The position numbers and the translations under genes are program-made. The notes beneath the pieces were generated by a model, which saw only the letters and a program-made list of their open reading frames with translations, made no database searches and was not told the origin of the DNA. A stretch of DNA of 64,000 nt from Candidatus Micrarchaeia archaeon (GTDB taxonomy: Archaea > Micrarchaeota > Micrarchaeia > Anstonellales > Bilamarchaeaceae), in contig JBAZFC010000001.1 in NCBI GenBank assembly GCA_041653635.1, positions 335,426 to 399,425 on the forward strand. The letters run 5' to 3'. Numbering within the stretch: position 1 is the stretch's first letter; every line of letters begins with the position of its first letter. Below, in pieces: positions 3,433 through 50,994 of the stretch.

Positions 3433-4791
3433 CTATTTGAAGAACCACGGCAACAGGTTGGACAGGAAAGCCGCAAGGATTAGATACATCACGAAGTCCG
3501 TGAATTTCTTGTTATGGACGGACAACTCAAGAAGGCGCATCCCGTCAAAGAAGGGAAGCGGGAGGAGATTGACTACGCCTATGATGAAGTTGAGGGAGAA
3601 TGCGAGGACTAATGTCTTGAAGATGAATGACAATAGAGGGTTATTGTATATCGTGAATGGCGCGTAATCCATGGGCAGGTAGGAGATGCCGAAGCCTCCG
3701 GTTGCGTTGATGGTGCGCTGCACTTCTCCATAGTTCGTGGTCAGGTTGATTGTGGAGCTGGGCGCTGTGTAATTTTCCGGGAGGTTCTCCACCTGGATTC
3801 CGTTTATCGCATAGATTATTGTGCCGTTGTCCATCCCCTCCAGCACATACCAGCCGCTCTGCTTGAACGGGCCGGTCACTCCCAGGAAGATGAGGAGGAT
3901 GGCGAAGAAGACTATTGACGAAATTAAATTGGCGGTGGAGCCGGCGACCACCACTCTCTTCTGCACTTCTTTGGATTTGGTGGATAGGCGCTTCTCGTCC
4001 GGCTCAACGAACGCGCCGATTGGGATTATTCCGAAGAATGCCACTCCTGAGGAAAGGATGGGGATTTTTCCAATCACGGAAAGGACTGCGTGCGCGCCCT
4101 CATGCACCACTAGGATTATTATGAGCGCGGCCAGCCCCTCAAACAAAGGTATGTTTATGCCCGGAAGGATGAGTGTGAGGCCGGGTGCGGTTTCGGCTAT
4201 TGCGGTCGTGCCGAATATGAGCGTGGATACAACGGCGCTGATTACGGTGAAGGCGTAGATGAGCAGGGACGCGGTTATGAAGGAGGCGAAGCCGCCCAGA
4301 TAGACGATTGCAAGCACAATGTAGGCCAGCAGGTTGCTGCCCGCCTCGGCTGTGGCCGCCTTTCCGCCGCCTATGGGCATCCCCAGGGTGTAGGAAAGGA
4401 ACGGGAGTATCGTTGGATATACGAAGATGAGGAGGACGGTTATGGTGACTAATGCGGAGAAGATTATGAGGATTTTTTCCCTTACATTCCTCTTGATTAC
4501 GAAGAAGGAGAGCACACCGTAGGCGAGGGCGAGGCCGAAGTCCGCGAACAGGTTCCAGAATTTCTCCCTTTTTGCTAATTCCTTTGCGATGTCTATGCCC
4601 TTCTGCGTCCTGAGGAGGATTAGTCCCCAGTCGCTGTGGAGCTTAGCTATGCGGGAGATTACCTCCCCGGACAATGCAAGTATCGCGATGGAGGCCAGGA
4701 ATTTCAGCGTGGGCGGAAGCTCCGTCTGCACAATCGCCCATATGGCGATGGCTGTGAGGAGTATTACTGCGAACAGCTTCACTTGCTTCAT
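3433..4791 (-). CDS. site-2 protease family (M50) zinc metalloprotease, multi-TM
   Basis: 452-aa polytopic membrane protein with HEGAHA (HExxH) inside a TM segment and C-terminal NLLPLPFFDGMRL (M50 LDG-type motif). Confidence 0.7.
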   Translation of the reverse strand: MKQVKLFAVILLTAIAIWAIVQTELPPTLKFLASIAILALSGEVISRIAKLHSDWGLILLRTQKGIDIAKELAKREKFWNLFADFGLALAYGVLSFFVIKRNVREKILIIFSALVTITVLLIFVYPTILPFLSYTLGMPIGGGKAATAEAGSNLLAYIVLAIVYLGGFASFITASLLIYAFTVISAVVSTLIFGTTAIAETAPGLTLILPGINIPLFEGLAALIIILVVHEGAHAVLSVIGKIPILSSGVAFFGIIPIGAFVEPDEKRLSTKSKEVQKRVVVAGSTANLISSIVFFAILLIFLGVTGPFKQSGWYVLEGMDNGTIIYAINGIQVENLPENYTAPSSTINLTTNYGEVQRTINATGGFGISYLPMDYAPFTIYNNPLLSFIFKTLVLAFSLNFIIGVVNLLPLPFFDGMRLLELSVHNKKFTDFVMYLILAAFLSNLLPWFFK

Positions 4792-9678: not shown

Positions 9679-10683
9679 CTATGTGGGGGTCGGGCCCTCC
9701 GGATGATTTGCAGGTGGAGCTGCCTGTGCATCCGCTGTTGTTGCGGCCGGCTCCGCCTTAAGGCGGCGCTGCTCCTCCAGAATCTGCTCCCTCTTCCTGT
9801 TGTTGCCTGGCTCCAGGATGCCCATCACAAGAGAAACGGTCAGCCATTGGGCAACCGCAGCCAGGATGTATGCAAACACCGGTACCGTCGTTCCCGGTGC
9901 GGCCGTGAAAAACTGGTTGGCAATCTGGTGTACCTGGCCTAATGCGTCTGAATTAGGCTCTACTTCTACAAGGCTGCGGCCTGCCCCCATGAGGTTCGGG
10001 AGGTGGTAGCAAGTAAGCGCCACGAATGCGGCCTTGGAGGCGGATTTCACGAATTCCGCAACCACTTTTACCCTTTCGGTCAGCTTTTCATTGGCGAGCA
10101 CCATTCCTCTTTCAACGGACTCCGCGGCAGCCGTCCAGGCTTTCTTCAGCTGGCGCCATGCCTTGCGGCCCCATACGAATCCCACACCCAATGCTGCGCC
10201 GAGCCCGACTAAAGGAGAGGAAAGCACATCGCTGACAGGTTCAACAGCTGCACGCCAGTTGGTGAAGTTGTCAGTTATTATCCCATATGCGGAGCTGGCG
10301 GGATCCCTGCCATTTGCCAAGTCCCCGATGTTGTCTAATGCCTGGTAGATGAGTGTTGTCCCTGCTGCGCCCACCCCGATCTTCCTGGCCTGGGCCAAGG
10401 TTTTTTTGGTGGCCTCACTCCCTAGCCCTAGTTTATCCAGAAGTTTGCCCAGAAGAGTGATTTTTCCCGCCGGAGGTGCGGGTTGTGGCGCAACCTGCTG
10501 AGCCTGCTGCTGCGGGGCGGCCTGCTTTGGCTCCGCCGGCGTGAGCGATTCAAGAAATCTCTTGGCGAATTCGGGGTTCCTTCTAGCGACCTTAATCAGC
10601 AGTTTGCGCTCGGCATTTGTCATGGCCAAACAGCGCTGGCATACATTAGCACGGTCTCCGGCAAAACTATTTTGGCCCGCCAT
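9679..10683 (-). CDS. hypothetical membrane-associated protein (334 aa)
   Basis: ORF with Gln/Pro/Ala-rich linker, predicted hydrophobic segments; no recognised catalytic motif. Confidence 0.4.
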   Translation of the reverse strand: MAGQNSFAGDRANVCQRCLAMTNAERKLLIKVARRNPEFAKRFLESLTPAEPKQAAPQQQAQQVAPQPAPPAGKITLLGKLLDKLGLGSEATKKTLAQARKIGVGAAGTTLIYQALDNIGDLANGRDPASSAYGIITDNFTNWRAAVEPVSDVLSSPLVGLGAALGVGFVWGRKAWRQLKKAWTAAAESVERGMVLANEKLTERVKVVAEFVKSASKAAFVALTCYHLPNLMGAGRSLVEVEPNSDALGQVHQIANQFFTAAPGTTVPVFAYILAAVAQWLTVSLVMGILEPGNNRKREQILEEQRRLKAEPAATTADAQAAPPANHPEGPTPT

Positions 10684-10809
10684 TAGATAATGACTGCAAA
10701 AGTCTTTTTAAATACTCTTTTTTAACATAAATAAACACTCCTAATCTTTATAAAAGGTTTTATGGGTAAATAGGAATGCTCTTTGGTTAGAAGAGATGCA
10801 CGCCTCAGC

Positions 10810-10903
10810 GCGTAAGGAGTGCGTGCAAAGAATCCCTCTGGTGAAGTCGGGGGAGGTATGATTACCCTAAAGAGAGGAGGGGCGCTCCCCTCTTCTTCTT
10901 GGA
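10810..10903 (+). other. conserved ~95-nt leader element upstream of tRNA-Gly(GCC)
   Basis: Shares blocks GCGTAAGGAGTGCGTGCAAAG, TCCCTC-TG-GTGAAGT-GGG, GGGGCGCTCCCC with the region upstream of tRNA-Thr at the same spacing. Confidence 0.35.
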
Positions 10904-10974
10904 GCGGCCGTAGTCTAGCGGTAGGATTCTAGGTTGCCAATCTAGCGACCCGGGTTCAAATCCCGGCGGCCGCA
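10904..10974 (+). tRNA. tRNA-Gly (anticodon GCC)
   Basis: Cloverleaf read by eye: acceptor GCGGCCG/CGGCCGC, anticodon loop TTGCCAA, T-arm CCGGG-TTCAAAT-CCCGG, discriminator A. Confidence 0.85.
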
Positions 10975-10996
10975 TTTGCTAATCAAATCGAGCAAG

Positions 10997-11380
10997 ATGA
11001 AAACGATGCTAGCTCCGAAAGACCGCAAAAGAGAGAGTTCCGCGAGATATGTGGGGTGCTGCGGCGCTTATTGCAAAACATGCAAGCCATTCATCGAGGG
11101 ATACTGCAAGGGCTGCAAACTGGGTTTTGACACCGGGGAACGGGATATTTCCAAGGCAAAATGCAGGATTAAGCTGTGCTGCTTCAAGGAAAGAAAACTT
11201 CAGACCTGCGCGGACTGCAGGGATTTTTCCTCTTGCATGGTTATTGGGGAGTTCTACAGAAAGAAAGGGCACAAGTACGGGAAGTACAGGCAATCAATCG
11301 AATTCATAAGGAAGAACGGGTATGCAAAGTTCATCGGGCTTGCTGGCAAGTGGAGATGCGCATACGGGAAACTGGAATGA
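10997..11380 (+). CDS. cysteine-rich small protein (DUF3795-like)
   Basis: Track ORF 10976..11380 begins 2 nt after the tRNA so a downstream Met is more likely; many CxxC/CxC pairs (CCGAYCKTCK, CKGCK, CADCRDFSSC). Confidence 0.45.
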   Translation: MKTMLAPKDRKRESSARYVGCCGAYCKTCKPFIEGYCKGCKLGFDTGERDISKAKCRIKLCCFKERKLQTCADCRDFSSCMVIGEFYRKKGHKYGKYRQSIEFIRKNGYAKFIGLAGKWRCAYGKLE

Positions 11381-11430
11381 ACTGGCAATCAGATTTAATA
11401 AAACGTCGGGAGTAGAATAATAACCTCTTA

Positions 11431-11549
11431 GCCGAGGTCACATAACCCGGTAGTGTGCCGGTCTCGAACTGGTTCCAATCCAAAACGGATAGGAGCCGTG
11501 TGAAAACCGGTTCCGCAAGGAATTGCAGGTTCAAATCCTGCCCTCGGCG
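11431..11549 (+). tRNA. tRNA-Ser (anticodon CGA) with ~36-nt intron near position 37/38 and long variable arm
   Basis: Acceptor GCCGAGG/CCTCGGC, discriminator G, anticodon stem CCGGT...ACCGG interrupted by ~36 nt (11469/70..11504/05), variable arm TTCCGCAAGGAATT, T-arm GCAGG-TTCAAAT-CCTGC. Confidence 0.7.
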
Positions 11550-11588
11550 TTCTCTTCTATTTAATAAAATAATGGAAGAGAAAAGAAA

Positions 11589-11686
11589 TGCGTAAGGAGT
11601 ACGTGCAAAGCGTCCCTCCTGTGAAGTGGGAGGGGGTCAGAATGACACCTAAAAATGGGGGGAGCGCCCTCCCCGCGTTTTTGGTT
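11589..11686 (+). other. conserved ~95-nt leader element upstream of tRNA-Thr(CGT)
   Basis: Paralogous to 10810..10903; preceded by TATA-like TATTTAATAAAATAA. Confidence 0.35.
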
Positions 11687-11758
11687 GCCTCGGTAGCTCA
11701 GCGGTAGAGCGCTCGCCTCGTAAGCGAGAGGTCGGGGGTTCAATCCCCCTCCGGGGCT
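11687..11758 (+). tRNA. tRNA-Thr (anticodon CGT)
   Basis: Acceptor GCCTCGG/CCGGGGC (one G-U), D-arm TAGCTCAGCGGTAGAGC, anticodon loop CTCGTAA, T-loop TTCAATC. Confidence 0.8.
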
Positions 11759-11761
11759 TTT

Positions 11762-12442
11762 CTAATTATATGGGTGCGGGCACGCGCCATCCGCGCATCC
11801 GAGGCAGGCGAGCTCGGAATGGCCGTAGTGGGCCGTGGATTCAGGGCTTGGGCACGAGAACTCGTGCAGCGTGGTGCCGTCGCAGTAGTCCTCCTTCAGG
11901 ACCCTTTCCTCTATGGTCCCGTCCGAATAATAGTCCTGGTAGATTATCTGCCCTTTTATGTAGAGGTGGTACGCGCCCCCTCCGTCCGTGTCGTTGCACT
12001 CGCTGCGCACGAGCTCGCGGCTGCACATTCCGCCCTCGCACCCGTTTGCGCACTCATAGGCCGCGTAGCTTATCACATTCCCGTCGCAGTAGAATTCCTT
12101 CAGGTCGGAAGGGCTGAGGCAAACGTCCTCCTCCTGCTGCAGGACAGTGGAATCCGAGCGCAGCACGGCCACGGATTGGGAGAACCTGTCGTCGCCTCCC
12201 TGCTTGTAGCATGAGATGTTCGGCGGGGCCTCGGGTGGCGGCTCGGGCTGGGGAGAGGGCGTTTCATTCACGGCGGGCGGCGCCTGCGCGGGCGCTTCGG
12301 GAGGCGGATGCTGCACCGGTGGGCACAGGTAGGTGCTGTTGGCCACCGAGCCGTCGGGGCATATGTAGGTTATGCTGCGCTGCTGGAGGCAGCCTGCGAA
12401 GACAATAAGGAGAATAAGCGGAATTATTGCGGATAATTTCAT
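11762..12442 (-). CDS. secreted/lipoprotein-like cysteine-rich protein with Pro-rich linker
   Basis: N-terminal signal peptide with lipobox-like AGC (LILLIVFAGCLQ), Pro-rich spacer, repeated YCDG/ECANGCEGG Cys motifs. Confidence 0.5.
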   Translation of the reverse strand: MKLSAIIPLILLIVFAGCLQQRSITYICPDGSVANSTYLCPPVQHPPPEAPAQAPPAVNETPSPQPEPPPEAPPNISCYKQGGDDRFSQSVAVLRSDSTVLQQEEDVCLSPSDLKEFYCDGNVISYAAYECANGCEGGMCSRELVRSECNDTDGGGAYHLYIKGQIIYQDYYSDGTIEERVLKEDYCDGTTLHEFSCPSPESTAHYGHSELACLGCADGACPHPYN

Positions 12443-19975: not shown

Positions 19976-20159
19976 GAGGCGCGGTCTTTTAATTTTCTTC
20001 TCTTCGGAATAATGAATACTGCTGTTGAGTAGAGAGCAAGAAAGGGCTTGAGGTTTTTGGGCTCCTTTTTGCGCCGAGCGAACGCTGAGGCGTGAGCGAG
20101 GCAACCCAAAGGCAGAACAATCCGAGCCTGGGGCGAGGATTGTGATGACAAAAAGGAGA

Positions 20160-22420: not shown

Positions 22421-24060
22421 TGGACCACAAGAAAGTCATTATTGCGCTGGCGCTGCTTTTCGCGGCGGGCATATATGCGTACCCGGTTTTCGCCGGGCTG
22501 GTGCTGATGTGCGCGCTCATACTGTTCGGCGCGCTTTCCCATTTCTGGGAGGGCAGGGAGCTGAAGCTCATCTGCCTTGGCGCAATTATACTGCTCGCGG
22601 GGTTCAACCTCGTGCTGCACGGGATGAAGTTCGGGATAGACTTTAGCGGGGGGACGAGGATTCCCGTGGTGCTGGAGCAGCCGGCGCAGGGCACAGTGAT
22701 GGACGAGATGGTGAATTCCATCAAGAAAAGGGCGTCCGCGTTCGGGCTGACCGAAGTGAAGGTGAGGGCGGTAGGCGACTCGCAGATAAACGTGGAAGTG
22801 CCGAGTTCGGACCCTGAGTTCATCAGGTCCGTGGAGGATATCCTGTCGCAGCAGGGGGTTTATACCGGCGTGGTGGACGGGAAAGCCGCGATGAAGGGTG
22901 AATTCATACTTCCCGGGACCATATACCAGATTTCCGCATCGCAGCTGCAGGGGGAGGACTGGGGCGTGGGATTTTCCGTAAATAGGGCGGGTGCGGAGCT
23001 GTTCGCGAGCGTGGTGAATGGGAAGGCGTATTATCCTGTTTATATGTTCCTGGACAGGCCAAATGATGCGGTTATAGTGGCTTCGTGGGACGAGCTGAAG
23101 GGAACCAGCCAGGTGATTGACAGGGCGGGGATGCTCACCGCGATGAGGAAGGCGCTCGCGCTTGAGGGGAATGATATTGAACTTTATGTTTATGACGGGA
23201 ACCTCAGCGGGATAGAGCCAGGGACGAACCAAACGAAGGCGATAATCTCAAAGGAAATGAATGCGAGCATAGGGCGGGAGCTCCGCGGGCTGGGTTTCAA
23301 TGTGGTTGTGGCGGAGGAGGGGATAACTCCGACGCTCATGTATGGGGAGGACACACAGGAGTACGTGGTGGAAGAATGGCCCGCGGTCGGGCTGCTTTCC
23401 TCACCGAGCCTTTCCCCGGACATAGCCACGGGCATACCTGCGTACAACTTCCGGATTGGAGGGGTTGCGCAGGGGGCAGGGAACGAGAAGGCGCTTTCGG
23501 CGTATGAGAGCGCGAAGAAGATTGAGTCCATATTGAAGGGAGGGGCGCTGCCGGTGCAGATTTCCATAGGTTCAAAGACAGTGATACCTGCGCCGCTGGG
23601 CGAGGAGTTCCTCAGGCTGAGCATAATCGGGCTGGGGCTTTCGCTGATAGCGATTTCGGCGCTTGTTTCATTGCGCTATAGGAAGATGAGCATACTGTTG
23701 CCGATTATAGTGATAAGCTTCTCCGAGATGGTGATACTGCTCTCGGTCATCGGTTCCTTTACGATAGACCTTGCCGCGATGGCGGGCATAATAGCCGCGA
23801 TAGGGGTGGGTGTGGACTCGCAGATAGTCATTACGGATGAATTGCTCAAGAAGGAAGGGTCGCGAGACGAGAAATTGGGGAAGGCGTTTGATATTGTGAC
23901 AACCACGGTCACGGTGGCGGTGTTCGCAATGGTTCCGCTTTTGTTCTCGGGAATGGTGGAAATCATCGGGTTCGCGATTTCAACCATATTGGGGGCGCTG
24001 CTGGGGCTGCTGCTTTCCAGGCCGGCGTATGCCGCCATAGTGGAGGGGATTGGGGACTAG
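22420..24060 (+). CDS. secD: protein-export membrane protein SecD-like (SecD/SecF family)
   Basis: GIDFSGGTRI motif, large extracytoplasmic domain, C-terminal multi-TM bundle; start overlaps secF stop. Confidence 0.75.
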   Translation: MDHKKVIIALALLFAAGIYAYPVFAGLVLMCALILFGALSHFWEGRELKLICLGAIILLAGFNLVLHGMKFGIDFSGGTRIPVVLEQPAQGTVMDEMVNSIKKRASAFGLTEVKVRAVGDSQINVEVPSSDPEFIRSVEDILSQQGVYTGVVDGKAAMKGEFILPGTIYQISASQLQGEDWGVGFSVNRAGAELFASVVNGKAYYPVYMFLDRPNDAVIVASWDELKGTSQVIDRAGMLTAMRKALALEGNDIELYVYDGNLSGIEPGTNQTKAIISKEMNASIGRELRGLGFNVVVAEEGITPTLMYGEDTQEYVVEEWPAVGLLSSPSLSPDIATGIPAYNFRIGGVAQGAGNEKALSAYESAKKIESILKGGALPVQISIGSKTVIPAPLGEEFLRLSIIGLGLSLIAISALVSLRYRKMSILLPIIVISFSEMVILLSVIGSFTIDLAAMAGIIAAIGVGVDSQIVITDELLKKEGSRDEKLGKAFDIVTTTVTVAVFAMVPLLFSGMVEIIGFAISTILGALLGLLLSRPAYAAIVEGIGD

Positions 24061-24061
24061 T

Positions 24062-24077
24062 TGTAACCATGGTTACA
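24062..24077. promoter_or_regulatory. 16-bp perfect palindrome TGTAACCATGGTTACA (copy 1), 16 nt upstream of the thrS ATG
   Basis: Exact palindrome read directly; four copies in the window, all intergenic. Confidence 0.5.
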
Positions 24078-24093
24078 TTACAGGTGTGGGCTC

Positions 24094-34775: not shown

Positions 34776-35972
34776 ATGGGATTGATGAGGCCGGACCACT
34801 ATTGCCACATATGCAAGGGCACCCGGAAGATGTGCGGGCTGGACTACTGCCCGCTCCTCAGCAAGCTTGCCGCCATGAGGAGGGGCGCTGAGAGCCTGGG
34901 GAAGAAAACAGTTTTTGGGGGGAGCGCGGAAGTATTTGTCGGGAGTTTCGGGTATCCGTCCGTTTCGTGGGGGCCGGTGGTGCCCCTGCAGGAGTATGCG
35001 GGCGAGCGGGACATATACGAGATGGGGTATGAGAAGATAATAGAACACAGAGTGAATGCGGTGCGCGGGAAGAGGTATGGGGGCATACGGCCCGTGGGGA
35101 AAATCGCTGATGAGACGCAGGATGTGGCGATGAGCGTGCGGCCCGTGGATGTGGAGATGCGGTTTTCCAAGGAGCCGGTTTTTGACATGAAGTTCTCGTC
35201 CGTGGCGCAGCCGATTGGGGCTTCCGGGACGATGAAGGACGTGCGGCTGTGCGAGAACCCTAAAATCCCGAAGAAAGCGGATGAACTATTGCAGGAAAAG
35301 GCGCGGGCGCGGGAGATTGTCACGGAGATGTTTGAGACCGGTTTGGATAATTATTACATTACGAAGGTTTTGTCAGCTGGATTGCTGGGGATGAAAGAAG
35401 ACAGGAAGATGGTGCCCACACGGTGGAGCATCACGGCGACGGACGACATGCTGGGGAAGCACTTGATGGGCAGGGTGCGGGAGTATCCAGAAGTGTCGGA
35501 CTTCTATGTGCTGAGCCATGAATCCCTGTCCAATCATTTTGAGATTCTCGTGATGCCCGGAAAATGGGAGTTTGAGAATTTTGAGGCGTGGTCGCCGGGC
35601 ACGATTTGGACGATGGGCGGCTCGGATTTCCGTGTGAGCGAGGAGCACGAGCTGTTTGAGGGGAGGACCACTTATGCGGATGCGCAGGCAGGGGGGTATT
35701 ATGCGGTTCGGATTGGAGTGCTGGAGTTTCTGGACAGGATAAGGAAGCAGGCGCGGGTGATGTCCATACGGGAAATTTATGAGGGCTACCAGGTGCCGGT
35801 GGGCGTGTTCCAGGTGAGGGAGAATGTGAGGGATGCGACGCTGAGCGTGAGGAAGTATTCTTCACTTTCCGAGGCGCTTGCTTCCATGGGGAGCAGGCTC
35901 CGGAAGGGGATTTCGGCGTATGCGGAAAGGAGCAAAATCCTCACGCAAAGAAGGCTTGATGAGTTTTTCTAG
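34776..35972 (+). CDS. Nre-family (archaeal DNA-repair-associated) protein, tentative
   Basis: ~400-aa ORF with N-terminal Cys cluster (CHICKG...CGLDYCP); family assignment from pattern memory; start uncertain (track ORF from 34719). Confidence 0.4.
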   Translation: MGLMRPDHYCHICKGTRKMCGLDYCPLLSKLAAMRRGAESLGKKTVFGGSAEVFVGSFGYPSVSWGPVVPLQEYAGERDIYEMGYEKIIEHRVNAVRGKRYGGIRPVGKIADETQDVAMSVRPVDVEMRFSKEPVFDMKFSSVAQPIGASGTMKDVRLCENPKIPKKADELLQEKARAREIVTEMFETGLDNYYITKVLSAGLLGMKEDRKMVPTRWSITATDDMLGKHLMGRVREYPEVSDFYVLSHESLSNHFEILVMPGKWEFENFEAWSPGTIWTMGGSDFRVSEEHELFEGRTTYADAQAGGYYAVRIGVLEFLDRIRKQARVMSIREIYEGYQVPVGVFQVRENVRDATLSVRKYSSLSEALASMGSRLRKGISAYAERSKILTQRRLDEFF

Positions 35973-35978
35973 GATTGG

Positions 35979-35996
35979 ATGTAACCATGGTTACAT
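35979..35996. promoter_or_regulatory. 18-bp perfect palindrome ATGTAACCATGGTTACAT (copy 2), ~50 nt upstream of the purF ATG
   Basis: Exact palindrome; about 20 nt upstream of a TATA-like TTTTTAAAAC element. Confidence 0.55.
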
Positions 35997-36045
35997 TTTA
36001 GCCTGGCAAACCTATGTTTTTAAAACAAAAAGGGGAATGTGAAAT

Positions 36046-44752: not shown

Positions 44753-44853
44753 ATAAACATAAATTATGAGAAGAGAATATAATGGGAGGGGAGGGTGTGT
44801 TTCCACTAATATATCTTCGTATGATATGATAAATGATATGAATTTAAAGTAAT

Positions 44854-44869
44854 TGTAACCATGGTTACA
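44854..44869. promoter_or_regulatory. 16-bp perfect palindrome TGTAACCATGGTTACA (copy 3), between the Hef-like helicase start and the pepA 3' end
   Basis: Exact palindrome in an AT-rich intergenic region. Confidence 0.5.
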
Positions 44870-45132
44870 TTGTGATTGAATGTTGGTTTATCTATACGAC
44901 ATAAAAACGGCTTTACGGAATTATAACCGAGTCAAACGCGTCTTTTATTACAACCTAAATCGCAGGGGGTTGAACAAATATTACTGGAAAACAAAATCCG
45001 TCCTTGTTGTGCCCGATAATCTAGGGCATGTTGTGGATCCTTTTTTCAAAGAGTACTCAAAATTCCTCATAGTTTACAAAATAAAATGCCGTGAAATAAA
45101 GGAACTGAAATAGTGGAAATGGGGGGCGTCCC

Positions 45133-47206: not shown

Positions 47207-47901
47207 GCCGGATGGTTCGTGAAATGGTTGTACGCCTCCGGGTGCGGCATGAGCCCGAATATCCTGCCGCTCTCATCGCAGATGCCGGCAACACCGCCCA
47301 CCGAGCCGTTCGGGTTGTAAGGATATTCATCAATTTTGCCTTCCGGGCTGACATATTGGCATGCAATCGTGTTCTTGCCGACCATCTCTCCCAAGACTTC
47401 GCGCCCTGACGGTATGAACCTCCCCTCACCATGCCTCACTGGAAGGTCCATGTACGCTATCCCCTTAGTGAAGACGCACGGGCTCTTCTGGTTCATCGCC
47501 AGCCGTACCCACCTATCTTCAAACTTTCCAGACGCATTGTAAGTAAGAGTCACGCGCTGCGTGAAATCCGGCACAGGAAGCAGCCCCATCTTCACCAGCG
47601 CCTGGAAGCCGTTGCATATCCCCAGCACAAGCTTCCCACCCTTCACGAATTCTGAGATTTCCCCGCCAGCCCTGTGCCTCAACCTGTTCGCGAGAACCCT
47701 AGCCGAGCCGAGGTCGTCCCCGAACGAAAAGCCGCCGGGCAGGATGAGCATGTTGTAATCCCGGAGCAGCGACGGAGAGTCGGTCACTTCGCTCACATGC
47801 CTTATGTCTGCCTCGCCCCCCGAGGTGCGCATAGCATACGCGGTCTCATGGGGGCAGTTTATGCCGTACCCATCAAGCACGATGGCCTTCGCCTTCACCA
47901 T
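47125..47901 (-). CDS. purQ: phosphoribosylformylglycinamidine synthase, glutaminase subunit PurQ
   Basis: Class I glutamine amidotransferase pattern: LILPGGFSFGDD, nucleophile GICNGFQAL, LMPHPE near C-terminus; start MVKAKAIVLDG. Confidence 0.85.
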   Translation of the reverse strand: MVKAKAIVLDGYGINCPHETAYAMRTSGGEADIRHVSEVTDSPSLLRDYNMLILPGGFSFGDDLGSARVLANRLRHRAGGEISEFVKGGKLVLGICNGFQALVKMGLLPVPDFTQRVTLTYNASGKFEDRWVRLAMNQKSPCVFTKGIAYMDLPVRHGEGRFIPSGREVLGEMVGKNTIACQYVSPEGKIDEYPYNPNGSVGGVAGICDESGRIFGLMPHPEAYNHFTNHPAWTRGATKVGEGLRIFRNAVEHIESKF

Positions 47902-50876
47902 TTCAACCCCCCGCTCCACGCGTCGCGCAGCTCAAAGACGTCCTCGTTCACAAGTGCGTTGTCGCCGTTCCTCAGCACCACCCGCTTGTCCCCGCGCACC
48001 CTTCCCGCCTTCTTTGTTTTGGTGCCGAACATCATCTTCTCAAACTTGAACGCGTCCTTCTCGCGCACGCTCACAATGAACCTGCCCGCGCTTTCCGAGA
48101 ACAGGAGCGCCGCATCCTCGTCCGTGTCCTTGCTTATCAGCGAAAGGTCCATTTCCGCACCGACCTTGCCGCCCATCGCGCATTCCGCGAAAGCCGCCGC
48201 AAGCCCGCCATCTGAAACGTCGTGCACGCTCCGTATGGTGCCCCGTTCCATCGCCTTGGAAAGCGCGGCATAGAGTTCGGAGTTCTCCTTCACCCTGACC
48301 TTGGGCATCCCCGCGCCCACGCCGCCGTGCAGCTTGAAATATTCGCTCCCGCCCATCTCGTGGTGCGTCGTGCCGAGCACGTAAATGGCGTCCCCGACCT
48401 CCTTGAAGTCCGAGCTCGCTATCTTAGTAACATCCTCAACTTTCCCCACCACGGTGACCAGCAGCGTTGGGTTTATGGAGTGCTTGCTGTCCCCCGAATA
48501 ATAGTCATTCTTCATGCTGTCTTTTCCGGATATTATCGGGGTCCCGTATCCCACTGCCGCATCATGCATCCCCCTCGCCGCCCTCACGAGCTGCGCAAGC
48601 TTGAAGTCCCCATCGGGATTGCGCGGCCCCTTTATCGGGTCGGGCCAGCAGAAATTGTCCAGGCAGGCGAGATAGCCGAACTTCGCCCCGCACGCGATTG
48701 CGTTCCGCACGCCCTCATCCACGGCGTTCATCGCCATGTGGTATGCATCTTCCGTATATCTCGGGCAAACCCCGTGCGCGACCGCCAGCCCGCCGTTCAT
48801 TCCCAATATGGGCCTGAACACGCCGCCGTCCGAAGGGGCGTTCCCCTCCATGAGCGGCTTGAGCGCGCTCCCCCCCTGCACCTCGTGGTCGTACTGCCGT
48901 ATCACCCATTCCTTTGACGCGATGTTCGGGGACGCGAGCAGCGCCTTCAGCGCCTCGCCGTGCTGCATCAGCGGCCTGCCCGGCGGGATAGGCATCCTGT
49001 CCTTCCACACCGCCTTGAGATGCATCTGTGGGACGCCCTCGTGCAGGAATTGCATATCCACATACGCGACAGTGCTCTTTCCGTAGAGGATGTGGAACTT
49101 CCCGCTATCCGTGAATGTCCCCGCTATGCTTGCCTCCACACCATGCTTCTTCGCCAGCTTCTCTATTCCCGGCATCTTTTCCGCCGGCACCGCGAGCGTC
49201 ATCCTCTCCTGCGATTCCGAAAGCAGTATCTCCCACGGGTCCAGCCCGGGGTATTTCAGCGGGCACTTGTCCAGATGGACCTCGCAACCGCCGCTGAGCT
49301 GCGCCAGCTCGCCTATGCTTGAAGAAAGCCCGCCGGCCCCGTCGTCCGTGACCGCTTCGAACAGCCCGAGGTCCCTCGCCTCAAGCACCATGTCTATGAC
49401 TTTTTTCTGTGTTATCGGGTCGCCTATCTGCACCACGCTGCCAGCTATTCCCGTCGTAAGCTGCTGTGAAGAGAAAGTCGCCCCATGAATCCCATCCTTC
49501 CCTATTCTCCCACCGACCATCACCGCAAGGTACCCTGGTTCTATCTTCTTCCTCGCCGTCTCCCTGCCGCCTATCTCGTGCGGCATCATCCCCACCGTTC
49601 CCGCATACACGAGCGGCCTCGCCGTGTAGCATTTCTCAAACACGACCGAGCCATTAACCGTCGGAATCCCGACCATGTTCCCGCCGTGCTCTATACCCCT
49701 CACGACGCCCTTCGCAATCCTCTGCGGATGCAGGCATCCCTTTGGCACATCTTTCTCGTCCAGGTAGCCGAAACACAGCACGTTTATGTTCGCGATGGGC
49801 TTCGCGCCCATACCTGTCCCCAGCACGTCCCTGTTCACGCCGAGTATTCCAGTGAGCGCGCCCCCGTACGGGTCCAGCGCCGAAGGGGCGTTGTGCGTCT
49901 CCACCTTCACCGCGATGTCGTTCTCATGGTCAAACCGGATTATGCCGCCGTTGTCCTTGAACACCGAGACCACGTACGGCTTCCGCACCTCATCCGTTGC
50001 GGAGCGGATGTATGTCTTGAATATGGAATCTATCTTCTCTTCCCTCCCCTCAACTCCTTCACCTTCCTCCGAATAATCTATTTTGGCGTTGAATATCTTG
50101 TGCTTGCAGTGCTCGCTCCAGGACTGCGCCAGGGCCTCCAGCTCAACGTCGGTCGCGCCCTTGCCCAACCCCATTTTTTCCCGTTCCTTCCGCACCGCCG
50201 CCTTGGCGTAGTGCGCCTTTATCTCGCGCATCTCCTCCAGGGAAAGGGCGAGCGTCCGCTCGCGGCTGATTTTCACCAGCTCCTCGTCCGGAACCTGGAG
50301 GTCTATCTCCTCGGCGACCGGGGCATGGTCCAGCTCCACGCGCGGAATGTACGGCTCAAACGCGCCGCTCTCCGGCTCGTAAACCTTCCATGCCTGTATC
50401 ACTTCGTTCGCCAGCAGCTTCTTCGCTATTTCCGCCAGCACGGAATCGTCGTCAAAATCCGCCCTTATCGCATACACCCGCGACGTGTATGCCTCCACCT
50501 CCTTTCCGAGCACGTCCCTTACTCCCTCAACCGCGGTGTTCCCCTCGTTGTCGGTCATCCCGGGTAGGAAGCCCACCTCTATCCTCCAGTAATCAGGATA
50601 GAACGGCGCCTTGAATGAGAACTCCTCGGAAACGGCGTCGGCGAAAAGCTCCTTGCCCAGCTTCTCCATCTCCCCATCCGAAAGTTCGCCGTAGAAATTG
50701 TATGCGCGCACGATGGCGACGTCGGTTGGCTTCACGCCTGCGAGCTCTGCTATCTTCTTTGCCAGAGGGGCGGCGCCGGGGTCTCTAAGGTCGCCTTTTG
50801 GCCTTACCTCTATGCGCCGCGCACCAAGAGGAAGGGGGAGCCCCCCCTTCTCTTTAGGGTAATCATAACCCCCCAT
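47895..50876 (-). CDS. purL: phosphoribosylformylglycinamidine synthase PurL with N-terminal PurS-like extension (PurSL-type)
   Basis: 993 aa; tandem PurM-like/AIRS domains typical of PurL; N-terminal ~80 aa resembles PurS; immediately upstream of purQ. Confidence 0.8.
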   Translation of the reverse strand: MGGYDYPKEKGGLPLPLGARRIEVRPKGDLRDPGAAPLAKKIAELAGVKPTDVAIVRAYNFYGELSDGEMEKLGKELFADAVSEEFSFKAPFYPDYWRIEVGFLPGMTDNEGNTAVEGVRDVLGKEVEAYTSRVYAIRADFDDDSVLAEIAKKLLANEVIQAWKVYEPESGAFEPYIPRVELDHAPVAEEIDLQVPDEELVKISRERTLALSLEEMREIKAHYAKAAVRKEREKMGLGKGATDVELEALAQSWSEHCKHKIFNAKIDYSEEGEGVEGREEKIDSIFKTYIRSATDEVRKPYVVSVFKDNGGIIRFDHENDIAVKVETHNAPSALDPYGGALTGILGVNRDVLGTGMGAKPIANINVLCFGYLDEKDVPKGCLHPQRIAKGVVRGIEHGGNMVGIPTVNGSVVFEKCYTARPLVYAGTVGMMPHEIGGRETARKKIEPGYLAVMVGGRIGKDGIHGATFSSQQLTTGIAGSVVQIGDPITQKKVIDMVLEARDLGLFEAVTDDGAGGLSSSIGELAQLSGGCEVHLDKCPLKYPGLDPWEILLSESQERMTLAVPAEKMPGIEKLAKKHGVEASIAGTFTDSGKFHILYGKSTVAYVDMQFLHEGVPQMHLKAVWKDRMPIPPGRPLMQHGEALKALLASPNIASKEWVIRQYDHEVQGGSALKPLMEGNAPSDGGVFRPILGMNGGLAVAHGVCPRYTEDAYHMAMNAVDEGVRNAIACGAKFGYLACLDNFCWPDPIKGPRNPDGDFKLAQLVRAARGMHDAAVGYGTPIISGKDSMKNDYYSGDSKHSINPTLLVTVVGKVEDVTKIASSDFKEVGDAIYVLGTTHHEMGGSEYFKLHGGVGAGMPKVRVKENSELYAALSKAMERGTIRSVHDVSDGGLAAAFAECAMGGKVGAEMDLSLISKDTDEDAALLFSESAGRFIVSVREKDAFKFEKMMFGTKTKKAGRVRGDKRVVLRNGDNALVNEDVFELRDAWSGGLKW
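50839..50876. repeat. 38-nt exact repeat, copy A (covers the purL start codon and first 12 codons)
   Basis: AGCCCCCCCTTCTCTTTAGGGTAATCATAACCCCCCAT identical to 52610..52647. Confidence 0.8.
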
Positions 50877-50928
50877 AGCGCGTTCTTGTTGGGCAAAATA
50901 TATAACACTTATTTATTGTGCGGGTGGA

Positions 50929-50946
50929 ATGTAACCATGGTTACAT
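50929..50946. promoter_or_regulatory. 18-bp perfect palindrome ATGTAACCATGGTTACAT (copy 4), between divergent purL and the hypothetical gene at 50995
   Basis: Exact palindrome ~20 nt upstream of TATA-like elements on both strands. Confidence 0.55.
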
Positions 50947-50994
50947 AGTGTGTGAAACAGGGTTTTATTAAGATTTCATGGCATAATAAGAGCC

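What the first reader, a model, noticed from the sequence alone, without database searches (positions are those of the whole stretch)
10810..11686. Paralogous ~95-nt structured leader upstream of tRNA-Gly(GCC) and tRNA-Thr(CGT)
The regions 10810..10903 and 11589..11686 align with conserved blocks (GCGTAAGGAGTRCGTGCAAAG; TCCCTCYTGTGAAGTNGGGRGG; GGGGAGCGCCCTCCCC-like) and near-identical spacing (94 and 98 nt) to the mature tRNA 5' ends, each downstream of a TATA-like box. Differences are not concentrated at synonymous positions, so an RNA element (co-transcribed small RNA, processing signal or tRNA leader with hairpins) is more likely than a peptide. Some blocks are loosely reminiscent of C/D-box elements but do not match the consensus.
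Basis: seen in the sequence. Interest (0 to 1): 0.55.

Follow-up and report, generated by a model that had tools for sequence, protein, structure and literature searches.

The report
Dispersed structured repeat abutting tRNA genes
The two ~95-base "tRNA leaders" are real, but they are copies of an undescribed, strand-specific, hairpin-forming repeat scattered through the genomes of tiny Micrarchaeota-type archaea, which lodges exactly at the ends of tRNA and other genes, so here it ends up as a long leader in front of two tRNAs.

Summary
Observation confirmed. Window 10810-10903 and 11590-11686 are two copies of one ~96-nt element, each ending 0-1 nt before a tRNA.

It is not a local duplication and not tRNA-specific. 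About 45 copies occur on about 30 contigs of Micrarchaeota-type DPANN archaea.
- About 14 abut a tRNA 5' end on the same strand.
- 5 abut a tRNA 3' end on the opposite strand.
- About 8 abut or overlap the stop codon of a convergent protein gene.
- 5 sit inside gene ends, flanked by duplicated gene termini.

Related genomes show filled and empty sites. tRNA-Gly(GCC) is empty in L030. tRNA-Gly(TCC) is empty in the window and filled in L013/L020.

The 3' hairpin is supported by compensatory changes (10 of 14 pairs). The sense strand folds better than the antisense in 24 of 24 copies. There is no Rfam match, no conserved ORF, no terminal inverted repeats and no linked transposase.

Best reading: a modular, recombining or mobile structured repeat with a fixed 3' end. 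In the window it is transcribed as the pre-tRNA 5' leader and presumably removed by RNase P. How it spreads and what the invariant 5' block does are unresolved. This is a new variant of a known kind, of moderate interest.

The parts
10747..10755 (+). TATA-like box (TTTATAAAA) upstream of the tRNA-Gly(GCC) unit
   Evidence: Read directly. Best box-A-like match within 70 nt upstream of copy 1 (11.2 bits, centre -59). The equivalent box is present in ortholog L009.
10773..10798 (+). Locus-specific upstream segment of tRNA-Gly(GCC) (GGAATGCTCTTTGGTTAGAAGAG hairpin). It is shared with orthologs and is not part of the repeat.
   Evidence: Aligned and conserved in window, L009 and the empty-site ortholog L030. 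Forms a small hairpin in the fold of 10763-10903.
10810..10903 (+). Element copy 1 ('Gly-type' 3' module). P1 hairpin 10810-10824 with AAGGAG loop; GCAAAG; GTGAAGT 10841-10847; G-rich tract; P3 GGTA-TGAT-TACC 10855-10866; P4 hairpin about 10867-10902. It ends 0-1 nt before the tRNA.
   Evidence: 74.6 bits. Absent from the orthologous site in L030.
10904..10974 (+). tRNA-Gly(GCC), abutted by copy 1
   Evidence: ARAGORN and Rfam.
11560..11572 (+). TATA-like box (TTTAATAAAATAA), centred about 26 nt before the first base of copy 2
   Evidence: 8.3 bits, centre -26. Conserved in orthologs L013, L005, L037 and L030.
11590..11686 (+). Element copy 2 ('ACC-type' 3' module). P1 11590-11604; GTGAAGT 11621-11627, enclosed by CCCTCC/GGGAGG; P3 GTCA-GAA-TGAC 11636-11646; P4 hairpin about 11648-11685 followed by a T5 run. 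It ends 0-1 nt before the tRNA.
   Evidence: z -2.9; 105.2 bits.
11687..11758 (+). tRNA-Thr(CGT), abutted by copy 2
   Evidence: The same tRNA carries the element in L005, L009, L013/L036, L033, L037 and L030.
50824..50874 (-). Partial copy (G-rich tract + P3 + P4 of the Gly-type 3' module only). It supplies the ATG and the first ~17 of the 22 extra N-terminal codons of the longest PurS/PurL-like ORF (47895-50876).
   Evidence: CM hit to model positions 41-95, 24.9 bits, E 1e-5. Sequence; ORF.

Best explanation
The two stretches are members of an undescribed family of ~96-nt, strand-specific, modular structured repeats dispersed in genomes of Micrarchaeota-type DPANN archaea.

Anatomy: an almost invariant 5' block (P1 hairpin GCGUA-AGGAG-URCGU followed by GCAAAG); a variable 10-11 nt; GUGAAGU; a G-rich tract; a small P3 hairpin; and a long P4 hairpin whose base, plus one nucleotide, is the element's fixed 3' end.

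The family spreads and reshuffles at the DNA level by recombination. The fixed 3' end becomes joined to the boundary of another gene. The region upstream of the element is variable and can carry a donor-type copy of the target gene's end. This is most simply read as integration of a small segment or circle ending at the element's 3' end by a single crossover.

In the window both copies lie between a TATA-like box and a tRNA, with no room for another promoter. They are therefore transcribed from about their first base as 94-97-nt 5' leaders of pre-tRNA-Gly(GCC) and pre-tRNA-Thr(CGT), and are cut off at their 3' boundary by RNase P-type processing. Elsewhere the P4 hairpin with its pyrimidine- or U-rich tail sits where a terminator for one or both flanking genes would be.

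Shown: family membership, distribution, P4 structure, strand asymmetry, junction positions, filled and empty sites, flanking duplications, module swapping.

Inferred: transcription start, RNase P release, terminator role, mode of integration.
For: Distribution.
- The exact 21-mer occurs in 9 genome loci, all labelled Micrarchaeota or 'ainarchaeum' MAGs, and in 20 metagenome loci.
- The covariance model finds about 38 copies in 24 sources, and more in 8 independently fetched syntenic loci.

Structure.
- 10 of 14 P4 pairs have compensatory double changes. 96% of cells are paired, against 44-70% when partners are slid. 0 of 500 shuffles reach the covariation score.
- The sense strand is more stable than the antisense in 24 of 24 copies (mean -34.2 versus -25.7 kcal/mol). 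G-U pairs number 1-7 in the sense strand and 0-3 in the antisense.

Junctions.
- The 3' end lies 0-2 nt from a tRNA 5' end in 12 cases (same strand) and 0-4 nt from a tRNA 3' end on the opposite strand in 4 cases, with a fifth through a tandem partial unit, plus L037 and L033.
- Convergent protein genes end within -7 to +15 nt of the element's 3' end.

Insertion polymorphism.
- tRNA-Gly(GCC) is filled in the window and L009 and empty in L030.
- tRNA-Gly(TCC) is filled in L013 and L020/L010 and empty in the window.

Flanking duplications.
- They start exactly at +1 after the element: 89, 54, 45, 41 and 23 nt, with z = 38.7, 22.3, 9.6, 15.6 and 6.1.
- In L001 the upstream copy encodes the same 16 residues with 13 synonymous differences. 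Its GC3 is 0.23, against 0.68 for the gene and 0.75 for the downstream copy.
- In L004 both remnants of tRNA-Thr(TGT) agree with each other and differ from the functional tRNA.

Other features.
- Copies truncated at the 5' end that keep the 3' end: window 50824, L032, the second module of L013_877 and the second unit of L003.
- The 3' module type differs between orthologous tRNA-Thr(CGT) loci.
- Neighbouring genes are housekeeping genes and no element-linked protein family recurs.
- TATA-like boxes cluster about 12-32 nt before base 1 in 15 of the 23 copies that have a good box.
Against: - There are no expression data, so the transcription start, co-transcription with the tRNA and RNase P release are all inferred.
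- The A-rich 5' arm of P4 lies at -38 to -31 from the tRNA. This is where element-less tRNAs in these genomes have their TATA boxes. The tRNA might therefore be transcribed from inside the element, and the element would then not be a leader.
- P4 followed by T5 in copy 2 looks like a terminator placed in front of a tRNA.
- No enzyme or intermediate for mobility was identified.
- The near-invariance of the 5' block, across genomes whose syntenic proteins are only 57-66% identical, argues for a sequence-specific function that this explanation leaves unnamed.
- Most loci were found through the exact 21-mer, which biases both the apparent conservation of that block and the copy statistics.
- All data come from MAG or metagenome assemblies.
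Confidence: 0.55

Rival explanations
1. It is a multi-copy gene for a stable, trans-acting small RNA of ~95 nt. Each copy would be its own transcription unit, starting at G1 about 25 nt after a TATA box. Its 3' end would be made either by termination at the P4/U-tract or, when a tRNA follows, by RNase P cleavage ('tRNA punctuation'). The invariant 5' block (AAGGAG loop, GCAAAG, GUGAAGU, G-rich tract) would be the functional surface that binds a protein or a pyrimidine-rich RNA such as the 3' end of 16S rRNA. Genomic dispersal would be secondary.
For: - The 5' block is nearly invariant, while P4 changes only by compensation.
- The structure is strand-specific.
- TATA-like boxes are often centred 12-32 nt before base 1.
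- The element at tRNA-Thr(CGT) is retained across lineages whose neighbouring proteins are only about 60% identical.
- There is a precedent in another DPANN archaeon: dicistronic tRNA-sRNA precursors, and small RNA genes at gene borders with circular forms (PMC3491384). Co-transcribed sRNA-tRNA units are also known in Pyrobaculum (PMC6009581).
Against: - Many copies are interrupted by nested mini-repeats, truncated, or fused into ORF starts. This is not expected for genes under selection.
- About 10 of the 36 copies examined lack any recognisable upstream box.
- Several copies start only 2-20 nt after the stop codon of an upstream gene.
- No target or partner was identified, and no known RNA family matches.
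Confidence: 0.2
2. It acts mainly at the level of transcription signals in DNA, as a portable terminator-plus-promoter cassette. P4 with its T-rich tail (and an A-rich/T-rich mirror on the other strand) would terminate transcription arriving from either side. The A-rich 5' arm of P4, 31-38 nt before the element's end, would serve as the TATA box for whatever lies downstream. In that case the tRNAs in the window have only ~8-nt leaders and the element is not part of their transcript.
For: - Element-less tRNAs in these genomes have TATA boxes at about -47 to -25. CTAAAAAT, CTTAAAAT and CTAAAGAG of P4 lie at -38 to -29 from the abutting tRNA.
- The element's 3' end abuts the 3' ends of convergent tRNA and protein genes, where a terminator is expected.
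- The reverse complement of P4 is again a GC-rich hairpin followed by a T-run (read).
- In L012 and L004 the inserted segment replaces the native promoter and start of a divergent gene.
Against: - G-U pairs and the sense/antisense energy asymmetry, together with A-U to G-U and compensatory changes in the A-rich arm, show selection on a single-stranded fold of the sense strand. That requires transcription through P4.
- Several types (AGAGAGAAAT, the Gly-type CCTAAAGAGAGG) are poor TATA boxes yet are linked to tRNAs.
- T-runs are only 3-4 nt long, or absent (Gly-type), in most types.
- This reading does not explain the invariant 5' block.
Confidence: 0.12
3. It is a non-autonomous derivative of an IS200/IS605-type element (a PATE), or a stand-alone omega-RNA-like scaffold. 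P1 and P4 would be the subterminal hairpins, and the sequence just after the fixed 3' end would act as a guide for a TnpB-type nuclease encoded elsewhere.
For: - TnpB (OrfB_IS605) elements exist in closely related genomes, one of them inserted right in front of the same tRNA-Gly(GCC).
- The element has asymmetric ends with hairpins and no terminal inverted repeats.
- It has a fixed 3' end followed directly by varied target sequence.
- By eye, the GGTGAAGT motif resembles the first bases of the left end of that IS.
Against: - The covariance model finds nothing at the ends of the TnpB elements in L030 and L031. Their right end (GCCCCGGCC-TTT-AGGCCGGGG-AGCATGTCAC) is unrelated.
- No conserved 4-5-nt target motif precedes the element or the duplicated segment.
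- IS200/IS605 insertions make no target duplications, whereas 23-89-nt duplications are seen here.
- No tnpA or tnpB lies next to any copy.
Confidence: 0.05
4. It is a recent local duplication of a tRNA promoter/leader region, or a short conserved peptide gene.
For: The two copies lie 780 nt apart. Short ORFs overlap each copy (10819-10932 and 11588-11707).
Against: - The element occurs in dozens of unrelated loci and genomes.
- The two ORFs are in different frames relative to the conserved blocks. The variable region differs in length by 1 nt between types, and stop codons fall at different places.
Confidence: 0.01

Closest known systems
Dispersed structured intergenic repeats of bacteria (REP/BIME, ERIC, pneumococcal BOX, Neisseria Correia elements)
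   Same: Both are multi-copy, roughly 100 nt long, non-coding and located between genes. Both fold into stable hairpins and are co-transcribed with neighbouring genes, where they can act as terminators, stabilisers or promoters. The modular build (5' block, middle, exchangeable 3' module) recalls boxA-boxB-boxC of BOX elements (comparison from general knowledge).
   Different: This family is archaeal (DPANN) and has no terminal inverted repeats and no short fixed target duplication. It has a strictly fixed 3' end that abuts the first or last nucleotide of tRNA genes, occasional long (23-89 nt) duplications of gene ends in which one copy is of donor type, and a 21-nt block that is nearly invariant across genomes.
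[quoted passage not shown]
   Same: These are small structured RNA units directly adjoining tRNA genes, so that tRNA processing would define one RNA end. They occur at the borders or ends of protein genes, show signs of mobility, and a circular intermediate has been proposed. One of the hosts is also a DPANN archaeon.
   Different: There are no C/D or C'/D' boxes and no k-turn GA tandem (GUGAAGU and UCAGA/CUGA match only partly). The element is about twice the length of a C/D sRNA. Here it lies upstream of the tRNA (RNase P side), not downstream (RNase Z side). No Rfam C/D or H/ACA model matches.
IS200/IS605-derived miniature elements (PATEs) and TnpB omega-RNA scaffolds
   Same: Both are strand-asymmetric, with hairpins near both ends and no inverted terminal repeats. 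Both have a precise 3' end followed by flanking target sequence. The parent family is present in related genomes.
   Different: There is no sequence or model similarity to the ends of the TnpB elements found. There is no conserved target motif, target-end duplications are present, and there is no adjacent transposase.
Campbell-type or homology-facilitated integration of small circles (for example ISCR1 with complex class 1 integrons, or integrative elements that carry a replacement end of their tRNA target)
   Same: The insert is flanked by two copies of the target-gene end. The copy contiguous with the gene is partly of donor type, and the displaced copy is of resident type. The gene stays intact because the insert brings a replacement end.
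   Different: The insert here is only about 135-190 nt, encodes nothing, targets many different genes, and has no integrase or rolling-circle gene associated with it.

Membership tests
C/D box sRNA | C box RUGAUGA near the 5' end and D box CUGA near the 3' end, forming a k-turn, with internal C'/D' boxes spaced by ~12-nt guides | tested here: not met
   The only C-like string is GUGAAGU (5 of 7) in mid-element. CUGA occurs in a few copies only (otherwise UCAGA), and no D box lies near the 3' end. No C/D family appears in Rfam at gathering score or at E<=10.
H/ACA box sRNA | Hairpin with an internal pseudouridylation pocket and k-turn/k-loop, followed by an ACA trinucleotide at the 3' end | tested here: not met
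   P4 is an almost continuous stem without a pocket, and no ACA follows it. No Rfam hit.
Any curated RNA family (Rfam 15) | Match to a covariance model at or near its gathering score | tested here: not met
   Only tRNA models match in 10600-11900. All other hits are far below gathering score.
MITE (classical) | Terminal inverted repeats and a short target-site duplication of fixed length | tested here: not met
   No inverted repeat joins the two termini; only the internal P4 arms are found. Flanking duplications occur in 5 of 33 copies and range from 23 to 89 nt.
IS200/IS605 miniature element (PATE) / omega-RNA | Ends matching those of an IS200/IS605 element; insertion 3' of a conserved 4-5-nt motif; no target duplication; tnpA or tnpB partner | tested here: not met
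   The model gives no hit at the TnpB element ends in L030 and L031, and their ends read differently. There is no conserved upstream motif. Duplications are present. No neighbouring transposase was found. A partner elsewhere in the genome could not be tested.
pre-tRNA 5' leader | Lies between the promoter and the mature tRNA 5' end on the same strand, and is removed by RNase P | tested here: inconclusive
   The position criterion is met for both window copies and about 12 others. Transcription and cleavage are not testable with these tools, and an internal TATA-like arm offers an alternative start. The family as a whole is not confined to tRNAs.
Intrinsic-terminator-like element (archaeal: oligo-T tract, with or without a hairpin) | Run of at least 5 T at the 3' end of the transcribed unit | tested here: inconclusive
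   T5 follows P4 in the ACC and GUC types, including window copy 2. Other types have T3-T4, and the Gly-type (window copy 1) has only a CT-rich tract.
Dispersed structured intergenic repeat (REP/BOX/Correia-like class) | Many copies per genome at non-homologous, mostly intergenic sites; conserved secondary structure; no coding capacity; presence/absence variation between related genomes | tested here: met
   copies; structure; no ORF; filled and empty sites; between housekeeping genes.
Integron attC site | R''/R' core sites (RYYYAAC ... GTTRRRY) bracketing an imperfect palindrome, in cassette arrays next to an integrase | tested here: not met
   The P4 arms lack the AAC/GTT core sites. Copies are solitary, and no integrase or arrays occur in the loci.

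The most novel reading that the evidence does not exclude
The mobile unit is an RNA: the excised pre-tRNA 5' leader itself, running from the transcription start at G1 to the RNase P cut. After release it has a 3'-OH and could be ligated or circularised by archaeal RNA ligases, joined to other 5'-phosphate RNAs (mature tRNAs, mirror-tRNA antisense transcripts, mRNA fragments), copied into DNA and recombined into the genome.

This would explain four features at once:
- both element boundaries coincide with predicted RNA ends;
- new junctions fall exactly at tRNA position +1, or at the complement of the tRNA 3' end;
- truncated copies always keep the 3' end;
- the 5' extent and the target duplications vary in length.

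It would be a SINE-like retro-element of archaea born from a tRNA leader.
Probability: 0.1. Interest if true: 0.85.

Novelty: new variant of a known kind. Interest (0 to 1): 0.55.

Why it matters
DPANN archaea have ~1-Mb, tightly packed genomes and are usually thought to carry little repetitive DNA. This family is roughly 100 nt long and recurs at gene boundaries. It places long structured leaders on a sizeable share of tRNA genes, supplies stop codons, start codons and probably promoters or terminators to housekeeping genes, and swaps modules between loci.

Three consequences follow.
- Annotation: the family creates false N-terminal extensions, tRNA fragments and misplaced gene ends in MAGs.
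- tRNA biology: an RNase P-type activity must process ~95-nt leaders ending in a stable hairpin stacked against the acceptor stem.
- Genome evolution: the precise joining of a fixed 3' end to tRNA termini and to replacement copies of gene ends points to a recombination or mobility route not described for archaea. It echoes the proposed role of small RNA genes in gene splitting in Nanoarchaeum.

The invariant 21-nt block also serves as a clade marker and gives a direct way to find a binding partner.

Tried and rejected
- Peptide gene. Rejected: frames and stops are not conserved.
- Six-codon mini-ORF from the GUG after the AAGGAG loop (MQRVxx*). It is present in many 96-nt copies but is broken by the 1-nt length difference in the CCCUC types. 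Rejected by reading.
- K-turn. GUGAAGU lacks the second GA. Rejected by eye.
- DGR-type template/variable repeat for the L001 duplication. The differences are not adenine-specific. Rejected.
- BHB introns for the nested insertions. There is no bulge-helix-bulge pairing at the junctions, so they look like DNA-level mini-repeats (by eye).
- Complementarity between the variable 10-11-nt segment and the 3' flank, as a guide. None was seen (by eye).
- A recurrent neighbouring protein. All-against-all BLAST of ORFs from all loci gave only syntenic housekeeping genes. Pfam on 10 direct neighbours gave RFC, diphthamide synthase, OMP decarboxylase, EF-2, SufB and PPDK.
- Viral or plasmid origin. Five element-derived patterns found nothing in IMG/VR.
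- Window tRNA-Gly(TCC) leader as a decayed copy. The model with filters off gives nothing.
- Literature searches for the motif, and for Micrarchaeota/DPANN repeats, returned nothing relevant.
- A consensus structure for the middle region. P2 exists only in the CCCUC types; the other types pair GCAA with UUGC instead. It is left unresolved.
Full report
**The observation**

The region holds tRNA-Gly(GCC) at 10904-10974 and tRNA-Thr(CGT) at 11687-11758. Between them lies an intron-containing tRNA-Ser(CGA) at 11431-11549, which only Rfam and intron-aware ARAGORN detect.

The stretches 10810-10903 and 11590-11686 align at 71% identity without gaps over 80 nt. They share the 21-mer GCGTAAGGAGTRCGTGCAAAG, which occurs nowhere else in the window even with 3 mismatches (0 expected). 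Each stretch ends 0-1 nt before its tRNA. TATA-like boxes precede both.

The window is archaeal. It carries L44e, S27e and eIF2-alpha genes, TATA-type promoters and no encoded CCA. A protein of the window is identical to one on a 1.03-Mb contig named Candidatus Micrarchaeia archaeon.

**Not a local duplication and not a peptide**

No Rfam family matches, at gathering score or at E<=10. The overlapping short ORFs are in different frames relative to the conserved blocks.

An exact-pattern scan of one genome per species found the 21-mer in 9 loci. All are MAGs labelled Micrarchaeota, or 'ainarchaeum' in one case, with up to three loci in a single MAG. The metagenome scan found 20 more loci.

A covariance model (R1) was built from 17 insertion-free copies. 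It found about 38 copies in 24 sources, including divergent ones that lack the 21-mer. It found further copies in 8 loci fetched independently through a neighbouring protein. In the window it finds the two full copies and one partial copy at 50824-50874 on the minus strand.

**Anatomy**

The element has the following parts, 5' to 3':
- P1, a 5-bp hairpin with an AAGGAG loop, followed by GCAAAG. This block is almost invariant. P1 itself shows only one-sided changes (U-A to U-G, G-C to G-U), so it is conserved more as sequence than as structure.
- A variable 10-11 nt.
- GUGAAGU.
- A G-rich tract.
- P3, a small hairpin that differs compensatorily between types: GUCA-GAA-UGAC, GGUA-UGAU-UACC and AUCU-GAA-AGAU.
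- P4, a long hairpin.

P4 is well supported. 96% of cells are paired. 10 of 14 pairs show changes on both sides. No shuffle reaches the observed covariation score, and slid controls drop to 44-70% paired.

The lower stem of P4 defines exchangeable 'types': ACC/GGU, GUC/GAC, CCCU/AGGG, AGAG, AGAAG and the Gly-type.

The fold is strand-specific. The sense strand is more stable than the antisense in 24 of 24 copies (mean -34.2 versus -25.7 kcal/mol). G-U pairs are much more frequent in the sense strand. This points to a single-stranded sense molecule, most simply RNA.

There are no terminal inverted repeats.

**Where copies sit**

- The 3' end lies 0-2 nt from the 5' end of a tRNA on the same strand in 12 cases in the first set, plus L037 and L033. 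The tRNAs are Gly-GCC, Gly-TCC, Thr-CGT, Thr-TGT, Asn, Ser-GCT and Ser-CGA.
- The 3' end lies 0-4 nt from the 3' end of a tRNA on the opposite strand for Ala-TGC, Ala-CGC, Leu and Gly-CCC. For Arg it does so through a tandem partial unit.
- In about 8 cases a convergent protein gene ends within a few nucleotides of the element's 3' end, or has its stop codon inside it.
- Upstream genes on the same strand end 2-20 nt before the element.

Neighbouring genes are housekeeping genes: PEP carboxylase-like, RFC, SufB, EF-2, PPDK, OMP decarboxylase and diphthamide synthase. No element-linked protein family recurs.

After the base of P4 there is one variable nucleotide. The flank then starts with G in most copies (read).

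**Evidence that it moves or recombines**

(a) Filled and empty sites.
- The locus of the finding is itself polymorphic. In L030 the orthologous tRNA-Gly(GCC) keeps the shared upstream hairpin GAATGCTCTTTGGTTAGAAGAG but lacks the ~105 nt that include the element. The window and L009 are filled.
- Conversely, tRNA-Gly(TCC) is filled in L013 and L020/L010 but empty in the window.

(b) Module swapping.
- At the orthologous tRNA-Thr(CGT) the 5' half is conserved but the 3' module differs. It is ACC-type in the window, Gly-type in L005, L009 and L037, and AGAG-type in L030. L013 has both, with the newer module abutting the tRNA.

(c) Truncated copies keep the 3' end.
- Examples are window 50824-50874, L032 at the start of eIF2-alpha, and the second unit of L003.
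- The partial copy in the window provides the ATG and most of a 22-residue extension of the PurS/PurL-like ORF.

(d) Flanking duplications.
- Five copies are flanked by duplications of the target that begin exactly at +1 after the element. The duplications are 89, 54, 45, 41 and 23 nt long (z = 6-39).
- The upstream copy is contiguous with the functional gene and, in four of the five pairs, is divergent next to the element (the 23-nt pair differs throughout). The downstream copy is a displaced remnant.
- In L001 both copies encode LQEEIVKAATMRKFLG*. After 12 identical bases they differ at 13 synonymous positions. The upstream copy has GC3 of 0.23, against 0.68 for the gene and 0.75 for the remnant. 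The upstream copy was therefore brought in from elsewhere.
- In L004 a tRNA-Thr(TGT) is bracketed by two outward-facing elements. Each is followed by a remnant of a different allele of that tRNA, with acceptor pair A6-U67 instead of G6-C67.
- In L012 and L004 the inserted segment replaces the promoter and first codons of a divergent gene.

(e) Nested insertions.
- Other mini-repeats have inserted into the loops and arms of several copies.

**How it most likely works**

The pattern is a fixed 3' end, a variable upstream extent, donor-type gene ends and displaced resident ends. It is what single-crossover (Campbell-type) or homology-facilitated integration of a small segment or circle would give, if that segment ended at the element's 3' end. 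The inferred sizes are 135-190 nt.

What defines that end is unknown. Candidates are a transcript end, a nick by a hairpin-recognising enzyme, or breakage at the base of an extruded stem.

For the window, both copies start about 20-60 nt after a TATA-like box and run to the tRNA. The most economical reading is that they are the 5' leaders of the two pre-tRNAs and are removed by RNase P-type processing. Element-less tRNAs in these genomes have TATA boxes at variable distances (-47 to -25), so leader processing must exist.

Two reservations apply.
- The A-rich arm of P4 lies where a tRNA TATA box would be.
- Copy 2 has P4 followed by T5, which resembles a terminator.

An internal start, or partial termination, therefore cannot be excluded without RNA data.

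The near-invariant 5' block is unexplained. The syntenic proteins of the genomes compared are only 57-66% identical. This argues for a sequence-specific partner, whether protein or RNA. Its AAGGAG loop and the GGAGG-containing tract resemble Shine-Dalgarno sequences, but this was not tested.

**Comparison with known systems**

- It behaves like the dispersed structured repeats of bacteria (REP, BOX, Correia): multi-copy, intergenic, hairpin-forming and modular.
- It also resembles the tRNA-linked, gene-border, possibly circular small RNA genes described in Nanoarchaeum equitans and Pyrobaculum (PMC3491384; PMC6009581).
- It fails the defining features of C/D and H/ACA sRNAs, classical MITEs, attC sites and IS200/IS605 miniature elements.
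- TnpB elements do occur in related genomes, one directly in front of the same tRNA-Gly. Their ends do not match the model or the sequence.
- No viral contig carries any of five element-derived patterns.

**Verdict**

- The 'RNA element rather than peptide' reading is right.
- The 'paralogous tRNA leader' reading is too narrow.
- It is a new family, and a new variant of a known kind of element. Its unusual, still unexplained property is the precise joining of a fixed 3' end to tRNA termini and to replacement copies of gene ends.

Limits of this analysis:
- loci were mostly found through the exact 21-mer;
- all sequences are metagenomic assemblies;
- there are no expression data;
- genome-wide copy numbers were not obtainable.

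Noticed in passing
window 11431-11549 (+): tRNA-Ser(CGA) with a 36-nt intron next to the anticodon. Default ARAGORN misses it; Rfam and intron-aware ARAGORN find it. It carries no copy of the element, although its ortholog in L013 is preceded by a degenerate copy (L013 663-754).
   Followed up: partly
window 24054-24079, 35972-35997, 44846-44871, 50922-50947; also L021 about 66-81: The perfect palindrome TGTAACCATGGTTACA recurs upstream of genes. One copy lies ~50 nt upstream of the partial element and the PurS/PurL-like ORF. It looks like an operator for a dimeric transcription factor.
   Followed up: no
window 47895-50876 (-): The longest PurS/PurL-like ORF (993 aa) starts inside the partial element, and its first ~17 of 22 extra residues (MGGYDYPKEKGGLPLPLGARR) are encoded by repeat sequence. 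Before the PurS-like RIEVRPKG there is no other ATG/GTG/TTG start codon in frame. L032 shows the same situation at eIF2-alpha (266 versus ~246 aa).
   Followed up: partly
window 20030-20159 (+): tRNA-Gly(TCC) has a different, G+C-rich upstream region of ~130 nt that folds well (z -3.15) and contains a C-box-like GUGAUGA. It is unrelated to the element by the covariance model. Orthologs in L013 and L020 have the element instead.
   Followed up: partly
L006, L011, L014, L017, L018 (inside element copies); L002, L013 1610-1650, L021 1100-1145, L036: Two further families of mini hairpin repeats are nested inside element copies. One reads CAATAGTTTCGCAGCAGCGAAACTGTGCGCATTTTTCCAGCGGGAAAAATAGCG. The other reads TTTCAGCCCCGATG..TATGGGGCTGAAAGCAAAG. 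Both look like small mobile repeats in their own right.
   Followed up: no
L013 about 1040-1085 (tRNA-Thr intron); L007 about 3540-3595; L009 about 1470-1510: The motif CCGGAAACTGGAAACCGG(C/A)AACAG appears as the intron of tRNA-Thr(CGT) in L013, as an insertion inside an element copy in L007, and in an intergenic spacer in L009. This suggests a mobile intron-like mini-element.
   Followed up: no
L030 1342-2487 and 6153-end; L031 1633-2778; L002 about 25-75: TnpB-only IS605-family elements (HTH_OrfB_IS605, OrfB_IS605, Cas12f1-like TNB) occur in close relatives. One has its right end (..AGCATGTCAC) 31 nt before tRNA-Gly(GCC), at the very site the element occupies in the window. A 47-nt fragment resembling their left end (GTGAAGTTCC..GAACTTCGCCAGACATC..GATGC) is nested in L002.
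   Followed up: partly
window 10976-11380 (+): A Cys-rich 134-aa ORF (many CxxC pairs) lies between tRNA-Gly and tRNA-Ser and is absent from the same interval in L009. It was not characterised.
   Followed up: no
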